From Leucoraja erinacea (Eukaryota): 64,000 nt of DNA. Positions 25,521-45,039 of this stretch are shown here, piece by piece. Below the pieces are notes generated by a model, which worked only from the letters and a program-made list of their open reading frames with translations, was not told the origin of the DNA and ran no database searches. The stretch's first letter is position 1. Every line of letters starts with the position of its first letter. The stretch lies in contig NC_073387.1 of the NCBI RefSeq assembly GCF_028641065.1, positions 31,496,001 to 31,560,000 on the forward strand, in the 5' to 3' direction. The translations under genes and the position numbers were made by a program.

Positions 25521-26704
25521 AGGTTTTATGCTAGGTTAATATACAAAAACTTCAATGCTTTGGTGAGCTGCTGCTACCAACCCGAGATGCTGAGCAGGGT
25601 CTGTGGTCTAACTGTATGAAACAGGAAAATCTGTGATCTCAGGTGACTTTTAATTGATTTCTAACCAGAAACTTCAAGCACAATGTGTCCTTTAGTGTGA
25701 GGCAACAGATGTAAACTCTTTTGTCTATTAAATATTTTTGGCATAAAATCTAAAAGCAGAAAAAAAAAGAATATACCACCTTCAAAATGTGCTCCACCAA
25801 ACCCACATGGCTCCCATCAAACAACGATAATATTATAAATGTTGCATTACTTTGAGATAGATTTCAATTTAGCCCCAGGCATGCAACTACTGATGTGGAG
25901 CGACTGCCTGCTATAGAAACTGCCTGAAACAATGAAATCAATGGAAGTTAAGATTGGGCGGTTTCTGTAATGGGCAAGCGGTTGAAAATCTATCCTTTTA
26001 TCTCTTTATATTTGCTTATGTCTCATTTACACTCTGATTTAATGCCTTAGAGCAGCTCAATGTATGGCTGATGCTGCAAATTGAATGGAACTTTGCTGTT
26101 CTTCTTTGGAAAAACTCCAGTCATAATTACTTTATTTTCATGCATGTGTAATAGATCTAACCAGAGGTGGGTCCGATTAAAACCAGTACCAATTCGTCAC
26201 AAGTAATTTGATTGTGAAATGGTGATCAGGTTTCATTCATGTGGGCCTGCACAATTTATATGGACATGCTCAAAACTGTGAATGTGTTAAGTTCTAGGAC
26301 TTGGGTTCACATCCAGTCTAGACTGCTGGAGTGAAGACATCTTTTTATATTTTTTGCTTAATTTCATCCAGCTTGAGGAGAAGTTCATATACTATTGTTT
26401 TTTAATTCAGAGCAAAGAACTGGTCTGCCTGTATTTGCTGGTCGATACTTTAACATCACCCTTCTGGAGAATATGTGTTGAATCACCTCTTTCATATTTG
26501 TTTTTTTTCATGTTGACTTTTTTTGTCTAAATTATAAAATTAAAATTGTTCATATTTTTGTGTGTGCACTGTGGCTGAATATGAAATGGAACTGATTTAT
26601 CCATAAATGTCGAGGCTATTATTACAGTGGGTTGATTTTTAGGATATTTCTGTAAGGAATTTTAACATTTACCCATAATATGACAGTATTGTCCCATAAT
26701 ACAA

Positions 26705-29700
26705 TAATAGACAATAGACAATAGGTGCAGCAGTAGGCCATTCGGCCCTTCGAGCCAGCACCGCCAGTCAATGATGGCTGATCATCCCTAATCAGTAACC
26801 CGTTCCTGCCTTCTCCCCATATCCCCATATCCGTTATTTTTAAGAGCCCTATCTAGCTTTCTCTTGAAAGTATCCAGAGAATCGGCCTCCGCTGCCCTCA
26901 TAGGCAGAAAATTCCACAGACTCACAACTCTCTGTGTGAAATAGTGTTTCCTCATCTCCGTTCTAAATGGCTTAAAATGTGGCCCCCGGCTCTGGACTCC
27001 CCCAACATCGGGGACATGTTTCCTGCCTCTAGCGTGTCCAAACCCTTAACAATCTTATATGTTTCAATAAAAACTCCTCTCATCCGTCTAAATTTCAGAG
27101 TGTACAAGCACAGCCGCTCCATTCTCTCAGCATATGACAGTCCCACCATCCCGGGAATTAACCTTGTAAACCTACTCTGCACTCCCTCAATAGCAAAAAT
27201 GTCCTTCCTCATATTAGGGGACCAAAACTGCAAACAATACTCCAGGTGTGGTCTCGCTAGGGCCCTGTACAACTGCAGAAGGACCTCTTTCCTCCTATAT
27301 TCAACTCCTCTTGTTATGAAGGCCAACATGCAATTCACTTTCGTCACTGTCTGCTCTACCTGCACGCTTACTTCATTGATTGATGAACAAGGACCCCAAG
27401 ATCCCGTTGTACCTCCCCTTTTCCTAACTTGACCCCATTTAGATAATATCTTCCTTCCTGTTTTTGCTACCAAAGTGGATAACCTCACATTTATCCACAT
27501 TAAACTGCATCTGCCATGCATCTGCCAACCTGTCCAAGTCACCCTGCATTCTCATAGCATCTTCCTCACACTGCCACCCAGCTTTATGTCATCTGTGAAT
27601 TTACTCACGTTACTTTGAATCCCTTCATCTAAATCATTGACGTATATTGTTAATAGCTGCTGTCCCAGCACCGAGCCTTGTTGTACCTCACCAGTCATTG
27701 CCTGCCATTCTGAAAGGGACCCGTTAATCCCTACTCTTATTTTCCTGTCTGCTAACCAATTTTCCATCTATGTCAGCACTCTACCCCCAATACCATGTGC
27801 CCTAATTTTGCCCACTAATCTCCTATGTGGGACCTTATCAAATGCTTTCTGAAAGTCCAGGCACATTACATCCACTGACTCTCCCTTGTCCATTTTCCTA
27901 GTTACATCCTCAAAAAATTCCAGAAGATTAGTCAAGCATGATTTCCCCTTCGTAAATCCATGCTGACTTGGGCCGATCCTGTTACTGCTATCCAAATGTG
28001 CCGCCATTTCATCTTATATAATTGACTCCAACATCTTCCCCACCACCGATGTCAGGCTAACTGGTTGATAATTCCCTGTTTTCTCTCTCCAGCCTTTCTT
28101 AAAAAGTGCGATAACATTAGCTACCCTCCAATCCACAGCAACTGATCCTGAATCTATAGAACATTTGAAAATGATCACCAATGCATCCATGATTTCTCGA
28201 GCCACTTCCTTAAGTACCCTGGGATGCAGACCATCAGGCCCTGGGAATTTATCAGCCTTCAGTCCATCAGTCCACCAACACCATTTCCTGCCCAATGTGG
28301 ATTACCTTCAGTTCCTCCGTCACCCCAGATCCTCTGGCCACTAGTACATCAGGAAGATTGTTTGCGTCTTCCTGAGTGAAGACGGATCCAAAGTACTTGT
28401 TCAACTCATCTGCCATTTCCTTGTACCCCATAATAAATTCACCTTTTTCAGTCATTAAGGTTCCAACTTTGGTCTTAACTAAATTTTTCCTCTTCACATT
28501 TCTAAAGAAGCTTTTACTATCCTCCTTTACATTCTTGGCTAGCTTACCTTCGTAACGCATCTTTTCTCCCCATATTGCCTTTTCAGTTATCTTCTGTTGC
28601 TCTTTAAACATTGCCCAATTCTCTTGCTTACCGCTCATCTTTGCTACATTGTACATCTTCTCTTTTATTTTTAGACTGTCTCTAACATCCCTTGTCAGCC
28701 AAAGCCGCTCCTTACTCCCCTTGGAATCTTTCTTCTTCTTTGGAATGAACTGACCCTGCTCCTTCTGTATTATTCCCAGAAATACATGCCATTGTTGTTC
28801 CACTGTCATTCCTGCTAGGGTGCCTTTCCAATCAACTTTGGCGAGCTCCACCCTCATGGCTCCATAATCCCCTTTGTTCAACTGTGACACAGACACCTCC
28901 GATGTATCCTTCTCCCTCTCAAATTGCAGATTAAAACTTTCCATATTATGGAATCGTTTTCCATATTCCTAATGGCTCCTTAACATCGTTCCCTTATCAA
29001 ATCCGGTTCATTACACAACAATAAATCCAGAATTGCCTTCTCCCTGGTAGACTCCAATTGCTTTCTCCCCGGTAGGCTCTAAGAATCTATCACGGAGGCA
29101 CTCTACAAACTCCCTTTCTTGGGGTCCAGTACCAACCTGATTTTCCCAGTCTACCTGCATGTTGAAATTTCCCATAACAAGCATAGCATTACCTTTACGA
29201 CATGCCAATTTTAATTCCTAATATAACTTGCACCCTATATCCAGGCTACTGTTTGGGGGTTTGTAGATATGTCCCATTAGGGTCTTTCTACCCTTACAGC
29301 TCCCTAGTTCCATCCATACTGACTCCATATCTCCTGTTTCAATGTCACACCTTGCAAGGGACTGAATTTCGTTCCTCACCAACAGAGCTACCCCACCCCC
29401 TCTGCCCACCTGTCTGTCTTTTCGATAGGAGGTATAGCCTTGTATATTCAGTTACCCGCAGCTGGCCTGCTTGCAGCTATGTCTCTGTAATTCCCACAAC
29501 ATCATACTTGCCAATTTCGAACTGAGCCTCAAGCTCGTCCACTTTATTTCTTATACTTTACGCATTCATATACAACACTTTGTCTTCAGTATTCACCTCC
29601 CCTCTCACACTGCTCGCAATTGGCCCTGACCTTACTCTCATCTCTTCTCGAACTACCTTCCCATTAATTCAGGAGTCTTTTGTAACTTTTCCTGTACTCA

Positions 29701-30540: not shown

Positions 30541-33500
30541 CTGTTGCTCAGAAGGGTAAGGAAAAGAAGAGGAGGGCAATTGTAATAGGGGACTCTATTG
30601 TCAGGGGGTCGGATAGGCGATTCTGTGGACGCAGACAGGAGACCCAGATGGTAATTTGCCTCCCTGGCAACAGGGTCAGGGATGTGTCGGAACGTGTCCA
30701 AGAAATCCTGAAATTGGTACATATAGGGACCAACGACATAGGTAAAAAAAGAGAAGAGGTCCTGAAAGAAGAATTTAGGGAGTTAGATAGAGAGTTAAGG
30801 AGAAGGACTGCAAAGGTAACAATCTCAGGATTACTGCCTGTGCCACGCGACAGTGAGAGTAGGAATGGAGCGAGGTGGAGAATAAATGCGTGGATGAGGG
30901 ACTGGTGCAGTGGGTATGGATTCAAGTTTCTGGATCATTGGGACCTCTTTTGGGGAAGGTGCGACCTGTACAGAAAGGACGGGTTGCACTTGAACTCGAG
31001 GGGGACCAATATCCTGGTGGGGAGATTTGCAAAGGCTACTGGGGAGACTTTAAACTAGTATGGTTGGGGGGAGGGACTCAAATTAAGAAAGCTAGCAGTC
31101 AGTGTGTGAGGCAGGAGGCAGAGAATGGTAGCACTCTGACCCAACATGTAGGGGAGAGAGAAAAAAAAGACAATAAACAGAGAATAAGAGAGGGTGGGTT
31201 TCTTAAATGTGTATATTTTAATGCTAGGAGCATTGTAAGAAAGGTGGATGAACTTAGAGCCTGGATTGACACCTGGAAGTATGATGTTGTGAAACATGGT
31301 TGCAGGAGGGCTGTGATTGAAAACTAAATATTCCAGGATTTCGTTGCTTCAGGTGTGATAGAATTGGAGGGGCAAGAGGTGGAGGTGTTGCATTGCTTAT
31401 CAGGGAAGATATTACAGCAGTGCTTTGGCAGGATAGATTAGAGGACTCACCTAGGGAGGCTATTTGGGTGGAACTGAGAAATGGGAAAGGGGTAGCAACA
31501 CATAGGGGTGTATTATAGACTGCCAAATGGGGAGCGAGAATTGGAAGAGCAAATATGTAAGGAGATTGCAGATATTAGTAGTAAGCACAAATTAGTGATT
31601 GTGGGAGATTTCAATTTTCCACACATAGACTGGGAAACACATTCTGTAAATGGGCTGGATGGGTTGGAGTTTGTAAAATGTGTGCAGGATAGTTTTTTGC
31701 AACAATACATAGAAGTACATACTAGAGAAGGGGCGGTGCTGGACCTCCTGTTAGGAAATGAGACGGGTCAGGTGGCAGAGGTATGCGTTGGGGAACAGTT
31801 CGGGACCAGTGATCACAATACCATTAGTTTCAATATAATTATGGAGAGGGTCGGAACTGGACCTAGGGTTGAGATTTTTGATTGGAGAAAGGCTAACTTC
31901 GAAGAGATGCGAAAGGATTTAAAAGGAGTAAATTGGGACAGTTTGTTTTATGGGAAAGATGTGGAAGAGAAATGGAGGACATTTAAAGGTGACATTTTAA
32001 GAGTACAGAATCTTTATGTCCCTGTTCGGTTGAAAGGAAATAGTAAAAATTGGAAAGAGCCATGGTTTTCAAGGGAAATTGGACACTTGGTTCGGAAAAA
32101 GAGAGAGATCTACAATAATTATAGGCAGCATGGAGTAAATGAGGTGCTTGAGGAGTATAAAGAATGTAAAAAGAATCTTAAGAAATAAATTAGAAAAGCT
32201 AAAAGAAGATATGAGGTTGCTTTGGCAAGTAAGGTGAAAGTAAATCCAAAGGGTTTCTACAGCTATATTAATAGCAAAAGGATAACGAGGGATAAAATTG
32301 GTCCATTAGAGAGTCAGAGTGGACAGCTATCTGCAGAGCCAAACGAGATGGGGGAGATATTGAACAATTTATTTTCTTCGGTATTCACCAAGGAGAAGGA
32401 TATTGAGTTATGTGAGGTAAGGGAAACAAGTAGAGTAACTATGGAAACTTTGAGATTCAAAGAAGAGGAAGTACTGACACTTTTAAGAAATATAAAAGTG
32501 GATAAGTCTCCAGGTCCGGACATGATATTCCCTAGGACATTGCAGGAAGTTATTGTAGAAATAGCACGGGCTATGACAGAAATATTTCAAATGTCATTAG
32601 AAACGGGAATAGTGCCGGAGGATTGGCGTACTGCGCATGTTGTTCCATTGTTTAAAAAGGGGTCCAAGAGTAAACCTAGCAATTATAGACCTGTTAGTTT
32701 GACGTCAGTGGTGGGCAAATTAATGGAAAGGATACTTAGAGACAATATATATAAGCATCTGGATAAACAGGGTTTGATTAGGAACAGTCAACATGGATTT
32801 GTGCCTGGAAGGTCATGTTTGACTAATCTTCTTGATTTTTTTGAAGAGGTTACTCGGGAAATTGATGAGGGTAAAGCAGTGGATGTTGTTTATATGGACT
32901 TCAGTAAGGCCTTTGACAAGGTTCCTCACGGAAGGTTGGTTAAGAAGGTTCAATTGTTGGGTATTAATGGTGGAGTAGCAAGATGGATTCAACAGTGGCT
33001 GAATGGGAGATGCCAGAGAGTAATGGTGGATGGTTGTTTGTCAGGTTGGAGGCCAGAGACTAGTGGGGTGCCACAGGGATCTGTGTTGGATCCACTGTTG
33101 TTTGTCATGTACATCAATGATCTGGATGATGGTGTGGTAAATTGGATTAGTAAGTATGCAGATGATACTAAGATAGGTGGGGTTGTGGATAATGAAGTAG
33201 ATTTTCAAAGCCTACAGAGAGATGTATGCCAGTTGGAAGAGTGGGCTGAAAGATGGCAGATGGAGTTTAATGCTGATAAGTGTGAGGTGCTACATCTTGG
33301 CAGGACAAATCAAAATAGGATGTACATGGTAAATGGTAGGGAATTGAAGAATGCAGGTGAACAGAGGGATCGGGGAATAACTGTGCACAGTTCCCTGAAA
33401 GTGGAATCTCATCTAGATAGGGTGGTAAAGAAAGCTTTTGGTGTGCTGGTCTTTATAAATCAAAGAATTAAGTATAGAAGTTGGGATGTAATGTTAAAAT

Positions 33501-34073
33501 TTTACAAGGCATCGGTGAGGCCGATTCTGGTGTATGGTGTACAATTTTGGTTGCCTAATTATAGGAAGGATGTCAACAAAATAGAGAGAGTACAGAGGAG
33601 ATTTACTAGAATGTTGCCTGGGTTTCAGCAACTAAGTTACAGAGAAAGGTTGAACAAGTTAGGTCTTTATTCTTTAGAGCGCAGAAGGTTAAGGGGGGAC
33701 TTGATAGAGGTATTTAAAATGATGAGAGGGATAGACAGTTGACGTGGATAAGCTTTTCCCACTGAGAGTAGGGAAGATTCAAACAAGGGGACATGACTTA
33801 AGAATTAAGGGACAGAAGTTTAGGGGTAACATGAGGGGGAACTTCTTTACTCAGAGAGTGGTGGCTGTGTGGAATGAGCTTCCAGTGAAGGTGGTGGAGG
33901 CAGGTTCATTTTTATAATTTAAAAATAAATTGGATAGTTATATGGACGGGAAAGGAATGGAGGGTTATGGTCTGAGCGCAGGTATTTGGGACTAGGGGAG
34001 AATACATGTTCGGCACGGACTAGAAGGGTCGAGAGGGCCTGTTTCCATGCTGTAATTGTTATATGGTTATATG
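30541..34073 (+). mobile_element. Young near-full-length CR1 LINE: esterase ORF1 3' part plus ORF2 with few disablements
   Basis: IGDSIVRG/HIGTND/DGLH esterase (30483..31058); endonuclease YFNARSI, VGDFN, SDH; 506-aa RT ORF 32222..33742 with YADD; tail TTATATGGTTATATG. Confidence 0.97.
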
Positions 34074-35173
34074 TCCAGCTGGTTGAATGCTATTAGACCT
34101 AAATTGATCTTGATGAATGGAGAAGATTTTATCACATCATTGACATGTGTCTTGTAAATACTCAGATTTTGTGGAGGCCATGTGGCTAATCACTTGTTCA
34201 GAGGACCATTGATCTGCTCTTTAGATTACAGTTTAATGCAAATCCTTCAGGTTTGTTTATGGTCAATACAATCCCCCAGGGAAATGTTCTGAGGTATTTA
34301 GTGAATATTGAATATAATTAGACTTTCTCTATTTGGAGAAAGCAATTTCTGCCTCTTGGGTGACAAAAAATTGTAATTTACTACTATTCAGCCTAAGCCA
34401 AAATATTGTCCTCATCTGGTTAGATGAAGGCATGGAATGTGTCCTTATTTCAGGGGAAACAAAAAAAAAGAATATTTTATAGCAGTGAACAGTGGGGTGC
34501 CCCAGTTATTTACAATATATATTAACGATTTAGATGAGGGAATTAATGCATCTGACTGCCTGCCTCTGCTCGCGCTTTGACAGGCATTACCCCGTTATGT
34601 CTTCTGTACTTCTTGGCTTCTTAACTCTCACTGCTTTTAATTTGTCATTTAGCGTTTTTAAACTGCTGCTCAGGAAGTGCTGCGCGCTCCGCTGGGCTCC
34701 TTGAAGTTCTAGAACATGGCGGCGGTGGCGGTCAATATCGCCATGCAGACGCGGGTGAGGGTGCCGGGAAGCACGATGGGAGGGTGACCATGGCGGCCAT
34801 TACTCCCTCTGGGAAAGGCCGTCTATGGAGACCTGTGATCCTTCCGTCGATCGCAGGGACACGGGGAATCGTGACGCCTTTTACTTGCTAGTGATCCTGA
34901 TCCCACCTGGCGATCTCTGGCCATCATGGGGAACGACCTCCTCTCCATCACCCCCTCCCAATCATCTGTCACGCGGGTGGGTGGGTAGGCTTCACCTTGC
35001 GGAAGCCATGATCGGCCGGCCCTCGCCGATTTTGACCATCCTCAGATTGCTCCAGGCCTCGCTCGGGTCCACGCCAGCCGCAACCTCGCCTGGTGCCTGG
35101 TGGGGAGGTTGCTGCTCACGACCTGGGTTGGCGCTGCCTCTACCCCCTCCCCCTCCTGTAGATTAGTGGCTCA

Positions 35174-37087
35174 TGTTATGTGTCCTGCTTTTGTAGTTAT
35201 GCCCAGTAGCTTATTAGCGTCGCGGTCTACTGCTCTCTGCAGTCTGAAGTGAACTTAAGTGAGAGCTTGTAGTTGTTTATTCTAAATAAACAGTGTATAA
35301 CCTGACATAGTGTGAGGTTTTTATTATTACAAGGACTCCAAACCAACATGGTGTTAGAAGTGGGATTTGAACCCATGCCTCCAGTTGGAGACCAGCTTCG
35401 ATTTCTCTAAAATCGCATCGACTAGCAACATGCTTCAGTGCACTGACATAGAGCTCAACCGGTTCGCCTTGTTTGTGACACATTGAGAAAAATTTATGTC
35501 GTTCAATGCTCACATTAATTTGTAACTAACATAGTTGTTGGAATTTACGTAGGAGGCACTCAGGATCACGGATGGGCTCTGCTGGAATTTGTTTGTTATT
35601 ATCATCCACACCAGCCGGTGCAGAGTGAAATCTTCTGGCAGCATCAGTGCTAAGTGAGGGAGAATCGAGGCATGAACAGCGGGTGCTGCATTCGGATAAG
35701 CAGCATCAGTGTAGAATCTTCCTCGAACACACGCCATCGCTCTGCAAGATCAGCATCAAACACCAAAATATCTGGCTTTTTGAGAGCAGCAAGATATCCT
35801 TACTCCATCGTAGTGGACGATATCCTCATTGCTGTGAAAATGATCGAGGAACACGGCGCCAATCTGACAAAAGAATTGAAGCATGCCGAGGCCATCCATC
35901 TCAAACTCAACTCCAAAAAATGCAAATTCAGAATGAATGAGGTAAAATACCTAGGCCATATATTTACCAAGGACGGCTTGAAAACTAATCCAGCGGAAAT
36001 CAGTGCCATTAATGAACTCTCAGCACTCACTGAGGTTCCTTGGCATGGCGAACTATCTGAGCAAATTCTTTCCTGATTTCAGTGAAATGTCAGCCCCATT
36101 ATGCCTTCTAACACACAAAGACACTACTTGGACCTGGCATGAACAACAACAGACATCATTTGACACTCTTAAATGGAAAATGTCGGCCACCCCTGCTCTA
36201 GCGTATTTTGATCATAGACTGCCTGTTACACTTACATGTGATGCCTCACAACATGGCCTGGGCACTGCATGCCTTCAGAATGATGGCCATGGCAATAAGC
36301 CTGTCACCTATGCCTCCCGCACCATGTCTGACACAGAACATGATACGCCCAAATCAAAAAGGAATTACTAGCGGTAATTTTTGCCTGCAAAAAGTTCAAC
36401 GATTTCATCTTTGGTTGCACAGTTACAGTTGAAACCGACCACCAACCTCTTATCAGCATTTTCACTAAACCTATTCATAACTCTCCAGTGCGCCTACAAC
36501 GGATGTTACTTCAAAAATGACATCGTCCTCACGTGCACCTCGGACGACCTGCGAGCGAGGATCTACCCTCGCAGGATGACGACTTTATCGTGATGTCCGT
36601 ATCCTTCATCCCTTCATCATGGATGGAGGGCTTAGTTGCCCACACTATCACTGCCAAGACCCTACGGTCCCTAACCTCTGTAATTAAGCGTGGCTGGCCA
36701 GCCAAGCACTACAACGTTCCTTTGCCAGTCTAACCTTTCTTCCCTGTTCGGGACAAATAAGTGCTACAAGACGGGATTGTTTTAAAAGGAACACAAGGCC
36801 GTGGTTCCTGCTTCGTTGCATCACTGGCATTTCGACACTGTCCATGCAGGACACCCAGGCACTGAATCCACTGTTTCACAGGCGAAAAGCATGTTTTACT
36901 GGCCTGGCATGGCCAAATACATCAACGACAATGTGGTAGCTTGTGCTGTGTGCAATAACATGGCACCTCATCAACAAAAGCAACCACTTCCGCCACATCC
37001 TGTACCTGCGCTCCCATGGTCTACAGTGGCAGCTGATTTATTTGAGTGGCACGGCAAGCAGAGCTCATGGATTCGTATTCAGGGTGG
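35174..37087 (+). mobile_element. Rearranged Gypsy (Mag-like) element: 5' LTR, extended tRNA-Leu PBS, inverted gag, partial pol; no 3' LTR
   Basis: TGTT...AACA LTR 35174-35348 with AATAAA; minus-strand gag KKPDILVFDADLAERW...ERHKFFS (about 35396-35793); plus-strand IVVDDIL, FLGMANYL, CDASQHGLG, HAGHPG...YWPGM...C..C. Confidence 0.88.
35349..35395 (-). pseudogene. DNA copy of the tRNA-Leu(CAA-type) 3' half including CCA (47 nt)
   Basis: Reverse complement CTGGTCTCCAACTGGAGGCATGGGTTCAAATCCCACTTCTAACACCA gives anticodon-stem 3' strand, long variable arm, T-arm, acceptor strand and CCA. Confidence 0.88.
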
Positions 37088-37156
37088 TTTGGTGCTGTTT
37101 CCACCTCCGCATCCACTGTTGAGGGGATGGGACCCAACGGGTCCCATTTGGTCTGG
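37088..37156 (+). mobile_element. Helitron-type 3' terminus
   Basis: Hairpin ATGGGACCC-AAC-GGGTCCCAT (37127-37147) followed by CTGG|T (CTRR) at 37153-37157. Confidence 0.6.
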
Positions 37157-41552: not shown

Positions 41553-42387
41553 ATTTGTTTCCTGTTTTGTTGATATAATTTGTTAGGATTGTTGAATATA
41601 CAGCCATATTTATTACACCATCAAAATTTCTAACTCTTCCTTAAAAGATGCAAAGTTATTACATCCTCTAACTCAATTAGGAATACTTCCTTCATATTTG
41701 TTACTTTGGTGGATAATTCAATGCTTTTGCATTTTCAACATTAAACCACTGCTAGAAGAGACTGTAAGATAATGCTTGATCTAATAGATATTCTATGCTG
41801 GGAACATTTACTTGAATTATTGCATGAAGAACCTTGAGATTTCCTCCTAGATCTCCTATGTACCAGTTTGAATATGTCAGTCTGATAATTTAATGTGAAG
41901 AAATACCCCAAATTTCTAGGGATGAGGGACTGATGTTACAAGGAAAGGCTAGAGAAATGGGATTGATTTCCATCTGATCTGTGACCACATGGGTTTTCTC
42001 CGGTTGTTCCTGTTTTCTCCCACATTCCAAAGACTTGTAGGATTATAGGTTACCCTATCTGTGAAGGAATGACATAGAACTAGTATGAACTGGTGATAAA
42101 TGGTCGGCATGGATTTGGTGGGCCAAAGGGCCTGTTTACATGTTGTAACTTGCGTGCAATCAATCTTACATAACTCTTGCATTATTTTACATAGCTTTTA
42201 TTCCTGACAAGCAATTCATATATTATCATTCTTAGAAGATTATGTGCAGCTGACTGCAAAAGCCTTAATATGTCTATAGTTATGATGTGTTCAGAACAAG
42301 AGACAAAACAAATGAAGGCAATGGTAACTTTCACAGTAATTGGTAGTGTATCTGCCAAACCTAGAAGGCTACAGATACATGTAGCAA

Positions 42388-44200
42388 CAATAGACAATAG
42401 ACAATAGGTGTAGGAGAAGGCCATTCGGCCCTTTGAGCCAGCACCGCCATTCAATGTGATCATGGCTGATCATCCCCAATCAGTATCCCGTTCCTGCCTT
42501 CTCCCCATATCCCCTGACTCCGCTATCTTTAAGAGCCCTATCTAGTACCCTCTTGAAAGTAACCAGAGAACCGGCCTCCACCGCCATCTGAGGCAGAGAA
42601 TTCCACAGACTCACTACTCTCTGTGAGAAAAAGTGATTTCTCGTCTCCGTTCTACTCTGGTTCTGGACTCCCCCAACATCGGGGACATGTTTCCTGCCTC
42701 TAGTGTGCCCAAACCCTTAATAATCTTTTATGTTTCAATAAGATTCCCTCTCATCCTTCTAAACTCCAGAGTATATAAGCCCAGCCGCTACATTCTCTCA
42801 GCATATGACAGTCCCACCATCCCGGGAATTACCCTTGTAAACCTACGCTGCACTCCCTCATTAGCAAGAATGTTCTTCCTCAAATTAGGGGATGAAAACT
42901 GCACACAATACTCCAGGTGTGGTCTCACTAGGACCCTGTACAACTGCAGAAGGACCTCTTTGCTCCTATACTCAACTCCTCTTGTTATAAATGCCAACTT
43001 GCCATTCGCTTTCTTCACTGCCTACTGTACCAGTATGCCTACTTTCATTGACTGATGAATAAGGACCCCCAGATCCCGTTGTACTTCCCCTTTTCCCAAC
43101 TTGACACCATTTAGATAGTAATCTGCCTTCCTGTTTTTGCTACCAAATTGGATAATCTCACATTTATCCACAATAAACTGCATTTGCCATGCATCTGCCC
43201 ACTCACGCAACCTGTCCAAGTCACCCAGCATTCTCATAGCATCCTCCTCACAGTTCACACTGCCACCCAGCTTTGTGTCATCTGCAAATTTGCTAATGTT
43301 ACTTTGAATCCCTTCATCTGAATCATTGATGTATATCGTAAATAGCTGCGGTCCCAGCACCGAGCCTTGCGGTACCCCACTAGCCACTACCTGCCACTCT
43401 GAAAGGAACCCGTTAATCCCTACTCTTTGTTTCCTGTCTGCCATCCAATTTTCTATCCATGTCAGCACTCTACCCGCAATAACATGTGCCCTAATTTTGC
43501 CCATTAATCTCCTATGTGAGACCTTATCAAATGCTTTCTGAAAGTCCAGGTACACTACATCCATTGGCTCTCCCTTGTCCATTTTCCTAATTACATCCTT
43601 AAAAGATTCCAGAAGATTAGTTGAGCATGATTTCCCTTTCGTAAATCCATGCTGACTGGGACCGATCCTGTTATTGTTATCCAAATGTGCCGCTATTTCA
43701 TCTTTTATGACTGACTCCAGCATCTTCCCCACCACCGATGTCAGGCCATCTGGTCTATAATTCCCTGTTTTCTCTCTCCTGCCTTTCTTAAAATGTGGGA
43801 TAACATTAGCTCCCCTCCAATCCACAGGAACTGATTCTGAATCTATAGAATATTGGAAAATGATCACCAATACGTCAACAATTTCTAGAGACACTTCCTT
43901 AAGCACCCTGGGATGCAGACCATCAGGCCCTGGGGATTTATCAGCCTTCAGTCCCATCAGTCTACCCAGCACCATTTCCTGCCTAATGTGGATTTCCTTC
44001 AGTTCCTCCATCACCCCATATCCTCTGGCCACTAGTAACTCAGGAAGATTGTTTGCGTCCTCCTTAGTGAAGACGGATCCAAAGTACCAGTTCAACTCAT
44101 CTGTCATTTCCTTGTTCCCCCATAATAAATTCACCTTTTTCAGTTTTCAAGGGTCCAACTTTGTTCCTAATTAATTTTTTCTTCTTCACATACCGAAATA
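42388..44200 (-). mobile_element. CR1 LINE, 5'-truncated, RT domain
   Basis: 370-aa ORF 43022..44134 with GVPQGSVLGP and FADD; tail (CAATAGA)n; same subfamily as 26705-29780. Confidence 0.95.
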
Positions 44201-45039
44201 AACTTACTTTGACATTCACAGTCTATGAAGATACTGCTTTCTGTGAAAAAACAGAAAATACTGGAAAATCTCAGCAGGTCAGGCAGCATCTGTGGAAAGA
44301 GAAATAGTCAAAATTTCAGGTTTGTGACCCTCTGTCACAACTGGGAACGAATGACACATAAATTAGTTTTGGATAAGAGGGATGCTGATGGAGGAATATG
44401 TAGAACAAAGGAAGTGTCTCTTCCCAAGGCCCTGCTTTGTGAGAGGTCAAGTTAGCTAGTATTCTGCCGAGACGTCCAGCTGTCTGGCCATGCCTTCCAT
44501 GACCCCAACCCCTCAGTCTCCTCTTTTCTCTAACCTGTTGATCCCAGCACAGCAGGCTTTCACTGCTGGTAATGGGTTACAAAAAAATCCATGGCACCTC
44601 CCATCCGACCAGTGTCTGTTTGATAACTTCCAAACTTCCTTCAAAATACAATGGGGACAAGATCCTTTTACGAAATGTTTGCCCAAGGGGAAATGGAGCC
44701 TTTATTGAGATCAGCCAATCTGAGCTTTAAAGACTTCCATAGACTGCATATGAAACTCATCTTATTATAACTGGCAAGTTTCCTATGACCTAGGCAACTG
44801 TGCCGGAGGCATGAAGTCAAAAGGCAAGTTGCTTTTAGTTCAAAAGTCCCTAACTTGCATGTAATTATACCTTTAGGGCTTGTGGTGATTGTTGATTCAC
44901 TTGTGCTAATGACTGCCTGGCTCTGGCAGACAGTTAACTTGCATGCACTCACCTGCTTCTCAGTTAAACCTGGCAGTGGAAGGTTGGAGCCAGGTTTTGA
45001 TTGTTATTTAGTTTGTTCCTGCTTTTGGTACAAGTGGGT

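What the first reader, a model, noticed from the sequence alone, without database searches (positions are those of the whole stretch)
35174..35800. 47-nt over-extended tRNA-Leu PBS followed by inverted gag
Directly after the LTR's ACA the sequence is complementary to tRNA-Leu from CCA through the T-arm and variable arm to C40, far beyond a normal PBS of up to 18 nt. Two of the mismatches are CpG-type decay. It is followed by about 400 bp of gag N-terminus in reverse, then sense pol starting just before the RT catalytic DD. This fits plus-strand strong-stop DNA that read through m1A58 and then made an aberrant strand transfer.
Basis: partly seen in the sequence, partly recalled or inferred. Interest (0 to 1): 0.75.

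Follow-up and report, generated by a model that had tools for sequence, protein, structure and literature searches.

The report
Retrotransposon fossils record tRNA modifications
This broken Gypsy retrotransposon carries 47 bases matching the host's leucine tRNA where intact relatives match only 8-14, and it is one of hundreds of such copies in the genome whose errors pile up at two tRNA positions, so they likely come from reverse transcriptase over-running its tRNA primer and likely preserve a record of that tRNA's chemical modifications in inherited DNA.

Summary
Window 35349-35395 matches the host's tRNA-Leu(CAA) at 44 of 47 bases (all three differences C>T). It follows a 192-bp LTR and precedes 396 bp of inverted gag, then sense pol. 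One correction: intact relatives have an 8-14 nt PBS, not 18.

A pattern for such extensions has 574 matches (control 0). On contig C1, 40 of 79 LTR+18-nt sites extend to 31 nt or more. Of 112 extended copies, 109 have their own junction. Many are two-LTR insertions with internal deletions, seven with exact 5-bp target duplications. Three copies cross the tRNA splice junction, so the template was mature tRNA.

Mismatches concentrate opposite A58 (21 of 40) and a variable-loop C (16 of 26), against a 3% background. This is the pattern expected from m1A58 and a predicted m3C. Likely mechanism: the tRNA-tailed plus-strand strong-stop DNA, a dead end in Ty1/Ty3, primes at an internal site and integrates.

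The error is described in 44 HIV-1 proviruses. I found no report of it at this scale in a germline, or read as a modification record. This locus's junctions are not verified by reads.

The parts
35157..35348 (+). 5' LTR, 192 bp (TG...CA), ~82-93% identical to other copies in the genome
35349..35395 (+). 47-nt complement of mature tRNA-Leu(CAA) from CCA to C40. The first 8-10 nt correspond to the native PBS; 35367 is opposite A58 and 35384 opposite the variable-loop C (both correctly copied in this copy); the last 2 nt are shared with the gag antisense
35396..35791 (-). Inverted gag N-terminus (codons ~2-140), stopping about 75 nt short of the native PBS
35793..37088 (+). Sense pol from 23 nt before the RT catalytic DD (35816-35821) through RNase H into integrase. 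Broken by frameshifts and stops, truncated in integrase, no 3' LTR in the window

Best explanation
This is a decayed, rearranged Gypsy (likely Mag-type) retrotransposon whose 47-nt tRNA tract was likely made when reverse transcriptase, finishing plus-strand strong-stop DNA, copied its attached tRNA-Leu(CAA) primer past A58 and then primed at a wrong internal site. Shown: intact relatives pair with only 8-14 nt of the tRNA; hundreds of copies carry 18-60 nt of tRNA complement, each joined to a different internal position; many are integrated two-LTR elements with deletions. Inferred: as in Ty1/Ty3, the first, tRNA-tailed strong-stop DNA cannot make a normal transfer, because its 3' end does not pair beyond the short PBS. 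Here it is rescued by 0-9 nt of microhomology, either on minus-strand DNA (sense landing, giving a deletion) or on a plus-sense template (antisense landing, then a second jump). The window copy took the second route: tRNA to C40, then 396 nt of gag backwards, then a jump to pol, and presumably on to a 3' LTR that was later lost. Also inferred: the errors opposite A58 and the variable-loop C are RT misincorporations at m1A58 and at an m3C, and the ceiling at 49-50 nt and the two longest copies (59-60 nt) reflect stops before m1G37 and m2,2G26.
For: Host tRNA match 44/47. Native PBS is 8-10 nt in gag-leading family copies and 8-14 nt in 20 of 20 fetched short-PBS copies of sister families, three of which have 1368-1432-codon ORFs. 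574 extended matches vs 0 control; 846 exact LTR+18-nt sites; 40 of 79 on C1 extend to 31 nt or more. 109 of 112 junctions are unique. Of 37 extended copies with 7 kb of sequence, 22 have a near-full 3' LTR, 20 of those 22 are shorter than the native 4.0-4.4 kb, and 7 have exact 5-bp TSDs; LTR pairs are 82-100% identical. Landing: 56 sense, 12 antisense, 12 with first hit >120 nt away, 29 no hit, of 109. Microhomology mean 2.4 nt vs 0.34 control in the 30 mappable copies. Mismatch opposite A58 is 21/40 and opposite the loop C 16/26, vs 18/567 non-CpG background (Fisher p ~1e-17, ~1e-15), and the states vary within one LTR family; in the larger set 54/109 and 47/68. All 16 gene matches have that C, and the 7 non-C loop candidates I fetched are all LTR+CCA retro-copies. 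L118, L246 and L247 cross the splice junction. In metagenome copies, whose tRNA lacks that C, the position is invariant.
Against: The window copy has the correct base at both signature positions, so it shows no signature by itself. Its junctions have little microhomology (2 nt exact at the first, at most 1 nt at the second), and 15 of 30 mappable junctions have 0-1 nt; my greedy end-call also inflates microhomology by a fraction of a base. The peak of ends at 35 nt (19 of 109) is not proof of an m3C stop, because ends at 35 also occur in metagenome copies with no C there. L101/L144, which seemed to pass G37, is explained by 5 nt of microhomology. No modification was measured directly. The three papers I read in passages list m3C47d for Ser and Leu(CAG), not Leu(CAA). 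The window copy has no 3' LTR or TSD.
Confidence: 0.85

Rival explanations
1. The long tract is a heritable family trait: a master element with a 47-nt PBS, or a few such masters, was amplified.
For: A few junctions are shared (L020/L028; L177/L178/L212). Four 18-nt copies share one antisense landing site (L010, L017, L029, L133). Native leaders carry a short second box complementary to the tRNA G49 region.
Against: 109 of 112 junctions are unique, across 54 different U5 ends, and signature bases vary within a family. Full-length copies have short PBSs. The four 18-nt copies have different second jumps. None of 109 extended copies continues into the native leader after the box.
Confidence: 0.03
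2. The tract comes from DNA-level recombination or insertion between an LTR-PBS and a genomic tRNA gene or pseudogene.
For: The host has at least 16 Leu(CAA)-like gene matches, and the tract is nearly identical to them.
Against: Host genes carry an intron and no CCA. Three copies cross the spliced junction and none of the fetched copies continues into the intron. Position-specific errors at A58 and the loop C are not expected from DNA templates.
Confidence: 0.03
3. Read-through happened on under-modified tRNA, and the variation at positions 19 and 36 reflects unassembled isodecoders or later mutation rather than misreading of modified bases.
For: About half the copies have the correct base opposite A58, so some primers may have been unmodified. 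tRNA gene arrays may be collapsed in the assembly. Real isodecoder variation is visible at position 38 and probably 21.
Against: All four bases occur at both sites. Neither site is a CpG, and neighbouring non-CpG sites change at 3%. Young elements with >=97% identical LTRs show the errors. No gene with a different loop base was found among those checked.
Confidence: 0.08
4. This particular locus is a misassembly of repeat fragments.
For: No listed contig bridges its junctions.
Against: The class recurs hundreds of times in this assembly, in short-read contigs of other runs (a 35383-to-35884 joint in X1 and X19; loose ends after 35395 in X8) and in 26 metagenome stretches. Assemblers do not create a mature-tRNA copy with age-appropriate C>T decay.
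Confidence: 0.03

Closest known systems
HIV-1 delayed/aberrant second-strand transfer (PMC12657518; passages read)
   Same: RT copies the primer tRNA beyond the PBS and jumps to a downstream site; inserts of 7-54 nt define deletion junctions; 5 of 44 sequences were changed at position 58.
   Different: Somatic, rare (44 sequences found by database search) and with an 18-nt native PBS. In the passages read, the position-58 change is described as a mutation. Here the copies are inherited, number in the hundreds in one genome, include antisense landings, come from short-PBS elements and show a second signature site.
Ty1/Ty3 dead-end plus-strand strong-stop DNA (review PMC5371799; passages read; the primary 1997 paper was not held)
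   Same: Short PBS; the first strong-stop DNA copies tRNA beyond it and is not used for normal transfer.
   Different: In yeast it stops after 12 nt and is described as a dead end. Here it runs 18-60 nt and ends up integrated.
m1A58 as the plus-strand stop in HIV-1 (PMC8599865; passages read)
   Same: Loss of the stop leads RT to copy more tRNA.
   Different: That paper states such DNA cannot be integrated and proposes a second stop at m5Um54. Here integrated products are common and few end at positions 20-25 (6 of 79).
RT signatures of m1A and m3C in tRNA-seq (PMC4787781, PMC7969016, PMC9072684, PMC11417395; passages read)
   Same: Stops plus misincorporation at Watson-Crick-face methylations; m3C47d/e2 in the variable loop.
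   Different: Those are laboratory RTs on purified RNA, and m3C47d is listed for Ser and Leu(CAG) only. Here the signal is in genomic DNA and implies it on a Leu(CAA).
Mag lineage of Ty3/Gypsy (PMC3286476; passages read)
   Same: tRNA-Leu PBS, LTRs of ~150-300 bp, 5-bp TSD, often one ORF.
   Different: No tree was built here. The passages read describe no extended PBS in Mag elements; one Osvaldo element with inserted whole tRNAs there is a different structure.
Tailless tRNA retropseudogenes (recalled; one search returned only papers citing them, search listing seen)
   Same: Genomic copies of mature tRNA; recalled as able to retain RT traces of modifications (not checked).
   Different: LINE-made 5' tRNA fragments, not LTR-anchored 3' copies.

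Membership tests
Ty3/Gypsy LTR retrotransposon | pol order PR-RT-RH-IN | tested here: met
   RT, RNase H, integrase H2C2 in order in the window; protease-RT-RH-IN in relative L288
Ty3/Gypsy LTR retrotransposon | TG...CA LTRs at both ends with PPT and TSD | tested here: inconclusive
   Only the 5' LTR survives in the window; relatives have both LTRs, a PPT and 5-bp TSDs
Mag lineage | tRNA-Leu/Ser PBS, short LTR, 5-bp TSD, single gag-pol ORF | tested here: met
   against PMC3286476 passages; TSD and ORF are from relatives
Mag lineage | RT phylogeny groups with Mag | not tested
   no tree or named-homolog search was run
Aberrant second-strand-transfer product | tRNA complement beyond the native PBS, directly after U5 | tested here: met
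   47 nt vs 8-10 nt native
Aberrant second-strand-transfer product | template is mature tRNA (CCA, spliced, modified) | tested here: met
   three sister copies cross the splice junction; errors at A58. The window copy stops before the junction
Aberrant second-strand-transfer product | tRNA insert defines a copy-specific junction into internal sequence | tested here: met
   109 of 112 unique; 68 of 109 map to gag/pol within 120 nt
m3C47d/e2-modified tRNA | demethylase-sensitive or chemically mapped m3C at the loop C | not testable with these tools
   only the genomic mismatch pattern is available (47 of 68, mostly C read as T)
Ty1/Ty3-type plus-strand transfer | primer tRNA sequence not inherited in productive copies | tested here: inconclusive
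   full-length copies keep a short PBS that diverges from the tRNA after 8-14 nt, as expected, but no marked-tRNA experiment

The most novel reading that the evidence does not exclude
Short-PBS, tRNA-Leu(CAA)-primed Gypsy families routinely integrate their 'dead-end' tRNA-tailed strong-stop DNA, so roughly a tenth to a third of their PBS-bearing insertions are germline single-molecule reads of the primer tRNA. These give a datable (by LTR divergence) fossil map of m1A58, an m3C in the Leu(CAA) variable loop not listed in the papers read, m1G37 and m2,2G26 in any animal genome carrying these elements, and they are a major source of deleted and inverted non-autonomous copies.
Probability: 0.6. 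Interest if true: 0.8.

Novelty: new variant of a known kind. Interest (0 to 1): 0.68.

Why it matters
Retrovirology treats tRNA read-through products as non-integrating or rare. Here they are a sizeable share of inherited insertions: 15 of 47 LTR-PBS sites in this family group, and about 10 of at least 111 in sister families on part of C1. Each copy is an in-vivo RT pass over a germline tRNA, so the set shows where a natural retrotransposon RT stops and errs, predicts a tRNA modification from genome sequence alone, and can be ordered in time by LTR divergence. It also extends the Ty1/Ty3 short-PBS transfer model to animal Gypsy elements, and warns that PBS calls of 18 nt or longer in these families select for rearranged copies.

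Tried and rejected
ARAGORN and Rfam found no tRNA at the locus, since it is a partial antisense copy. Pfam found no family for the gag pieces. I first took the 18-nt copies L010/L017/L029/L133 as the normal form; they are aberrant landings in antisense integrase through 7 nt of microhomology. I first counted L101/L144 as crossing G37; withdrawn. The idea that the 35-nt end peak reflects landing on the native second box was rejected, 0 of 109. The idea that it proves an m3C stop is not established. Isodecoders as the source of position-36 variation were not found (I fetched 13 of the 73 rows, chosen as gene-like). Extension with other tRNA primers after ACA: 14 matches vs 20 control, 3 of them mutated Leu copies and most of the rest one other repeat; families with a spacer after the LTR would be missed. 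Short-read contigs at 90% likeness were uninformative for this locus's junctions, and the narrower test gave no result. Ten literature searches found no paper on genome-wide extended PBS or fossil modification signatures in LTR retrotransposons; most subscription papers, including older retroviral tRNA-insert reports I recall, are outside the library, and no supplements were read. One search's filter excludes most extended copies, so I combined it for the sister-family share. Tallies are hand counts.

Full report
Observation. The window is G000:C11:31496001-31560000 of a 2.19-Gb genome. A D-arm/anticodon motif search gave 16 tRNA-Leu(CAA)-like gene matches, none intron-less and none with an encoded CCA. 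Bases 35349-35395 match the complement of CCA plus the 3' exon at 44 of 47, to C40, with three C>T changes, two in CpGs. Bases 35396-35791 are gag codons ~2-140 in reverse. Pol starts at 35793, 23 nt before the RT DD, and runs to ~37088 in integrase. There is no other LTR copy in the window. The first junction shares 2 exact nt with the gag antisense (4 of the last 5), and the second shares at most 1.

The normal PBS is short. Gag-leading copies of this family match the tRNA for only 8-10 nt, then run through a ~65-nt leader to the ATG. Twenty fetched short-PBS copies of sister families match for 8-14 nt. Twelve have a 3' LTR, ten of those at 4.0-4.4 kb, and three have ORFs of 1368-1432 codons. 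One such ORF has protease-RT-RNase H-integrase order. The tRNA-Leu PBS, short LTRs, 5-bp TSD and single ORF fit the Mag lineage as described in PMC3286476 (passages); no tree was built. An 18-nt copy is therefore already longer than native. Four such copies in this family land at one antisense integrase site through 7 nt of microhomology, each with a different second jump.

Recurrence. An LTR-anchored pattern extending into the T-arm has 574 matches at up to 2 mismatches, control 0. There are 846 exact ACA+18-nt sites. I examined all 79 on contig C1: 33 end at 18-19 nt, 6 at 20-25, and 40 at 31 or more. In this family group, a hand count of all 47 rows gives 19 short colinear (2 doubtful), 8 at 18-19 nt, 15 extended (one only ~21 nt, two a duplicate pair) and 5 other. 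In TTTACA-ending families on the first 109 Mb of C1 there are at least 86 short sites against 25 of 18 nt or more, 10 of them extended. Of 112 extended copies fetched, 109 have unique junctions, across 54 U5 ends. Of 37 with 7 kb of sequence, 22 have a near-full 3' LTR, 4 a partial hit, 1 an inverted LTR and 10 none. Twenty of the 22 are shorter than native, 7 have exact 5-bp TSDs, and LTR identity is 82-100%. These were therefore integrated, over a long period. Landing sites are spread along gag-pol: 56 sense, 12 antisense, 12 with a first hit more than 120 nt away and 29 unassigned. In the 30 mappable at DNA level, microhomology averages 2.4 nt vs 0.34 in controls, but 15 have 0-1 nt. In L147 the antisense run continues through a native PBS and a whole inverted LTR, and L111 (an 18-nt copy) is similar, so plus-strand DNA can likely serve as the antisense template. 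The same extension occurs in 26 metagenome stretches (about 14 distinct events by eye; 4 stretches show gag-pol similarity) and in contigs of other runs. It was not seen above chance for other tRNA primers in this genome.

Mature tRNA template and modification traces. L118 (59 nt, mismatched opposite G37), L247 (60 nt) and L246 (54 nt) continue across the exon-exon junction. In the C1 set, mismatches are 21 of 40 opposite A58 and 16 of 26 opposite the variable-loop C, against 18 of 567 at non-CpG sites (position 38, an isodecoder site, left out; Fisher p ~1e-17 and ~1e-15). In all 109 copies the bases are T55 A39 C9 G6 at position 19 and G21 A33 C7 T7 at position 36 (68 copies); CpG sites run at 10-18%. 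That larger set was partly selected by a pattern that fixes positions 20-32, so the C1 set is the fair background. All 16 gene matches carry the loop C, and the gene-like exceptions I fetched are retro-copies. In the metagenome copies the homologous base is invariant. Ends peak at 35 (19 of 109) and are spread over 41-51, with a ceiling just before G37; the two longest copies end just before G26. Stops and misincorporation at m1A and m3C are established (PMC4787781, PMC7969016, PMC9072684; passages). m3C47d is listed for Ser and Leu(CAG) only there and in zebrafish (PMC11417395), so m3C on this Leu(CAA) is a prediction (my odds about 0.7; m1A58 about 0.9; the G37 and G26 assignments rest on recalled modification positions, with PMC9072684 mentioning m1G37 in Leu(CAA)). 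The window copy itself has the correct base at both sites.

Mechanism. In Ty1/Ty3 the first plus-strand strong-stop DNA copies tRNA beyond the short PBS and is a dead end, while productive transfer uses a later, tRNA-free product (review PMC5371799). I infer the same route for full-length copies here, and that the tRNA-tailed product (stopped at A58 or read on to later blocks) is often rescued by priming at an internal site. For the window: tRNA to C40, a jump to a plus-sense template at gag codon ~140, 396 nt copied backwards, a jump to minus-strand DNA in RT, integration, and later loss of the 3' part. The order and the lost 3' LTR are inferred.

Prior art and verdict. The same error is described in 44 defective HIV-1 proviruses with 7-54 nt tRNA-Lys3 inserts, 5 of them changed at position 58 (PMC12657518), while PMC8599865 states such DNA cannot integrate. 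Ten searches found no genome-scale or modification-record account for LTR retrotransposons, within an open-access library and without supplements. The locus is a dead copy, but it is an entry to a real, quantifiable genome-wide phenomenon: a new variant of a known kind, interest 0.68. Open points: this locus is not read-verified, no modification was measured, and the counts rest on the first-listed contigs rather than a full census.

Noticed in passing
L288-L307 (native leaders, ~10-20 nt after the PBS); also L228-L241: Most native leaders carry a short box complementary to the tRNA around G49 and the variable-arm 3' strand. It could be a second primer-docking site like Ty1 boxes or the HIV primer activation signal (names recalled), or a relic of an old read-through.
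   Followed up: partly
L010, L017, L029, L133: Recurrent hotspot: 18-nt strong-stop ends land on one antisense integrase site through 7 nt of microhomology, each with a different second jump.
   Followed up: partly
L147 and L111: Head-to-head elements in which the antisense copy runs through a native PBS and a whole inverted LTR; both also have inverted element sequence left of a truncated first LTR.
   Followed up: partly
L146 (=L056), just after the tRNA tract: A 49-nt antisense tRNA copy is followed directly by a sense-orientation copy of the tRNA 3' end with CCA, a fold-back or inter-molecular copy.
   Followed up: no
L266 and L250: Tandem LTR-end plus tRNA-tract units, suggesting repeated rounds of mis-priming.
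   Followed up: no
L034-L040 (G000:C12, ~6.29-6.33 Mb): A tandem cluster of tRNA-Leu(CAA) genes with A in place of G57 in the T-loop; may explain part of the variation at copy position 21.
   Followed up: no
window 34540-35156: GC-rich stretch left of the LTR, covered by contigs in all four runs laid from 34900 on but not matched in my loci; an unidentified repeat.
   Followed up: no
window 26700-28510 and 42385-44205: Two ~1.8-kb copies (84-96% identical blocks) of a LINE-like repeat; related fragments flank the element at ~33500-34060 and from ~37100.
   Followed up: no
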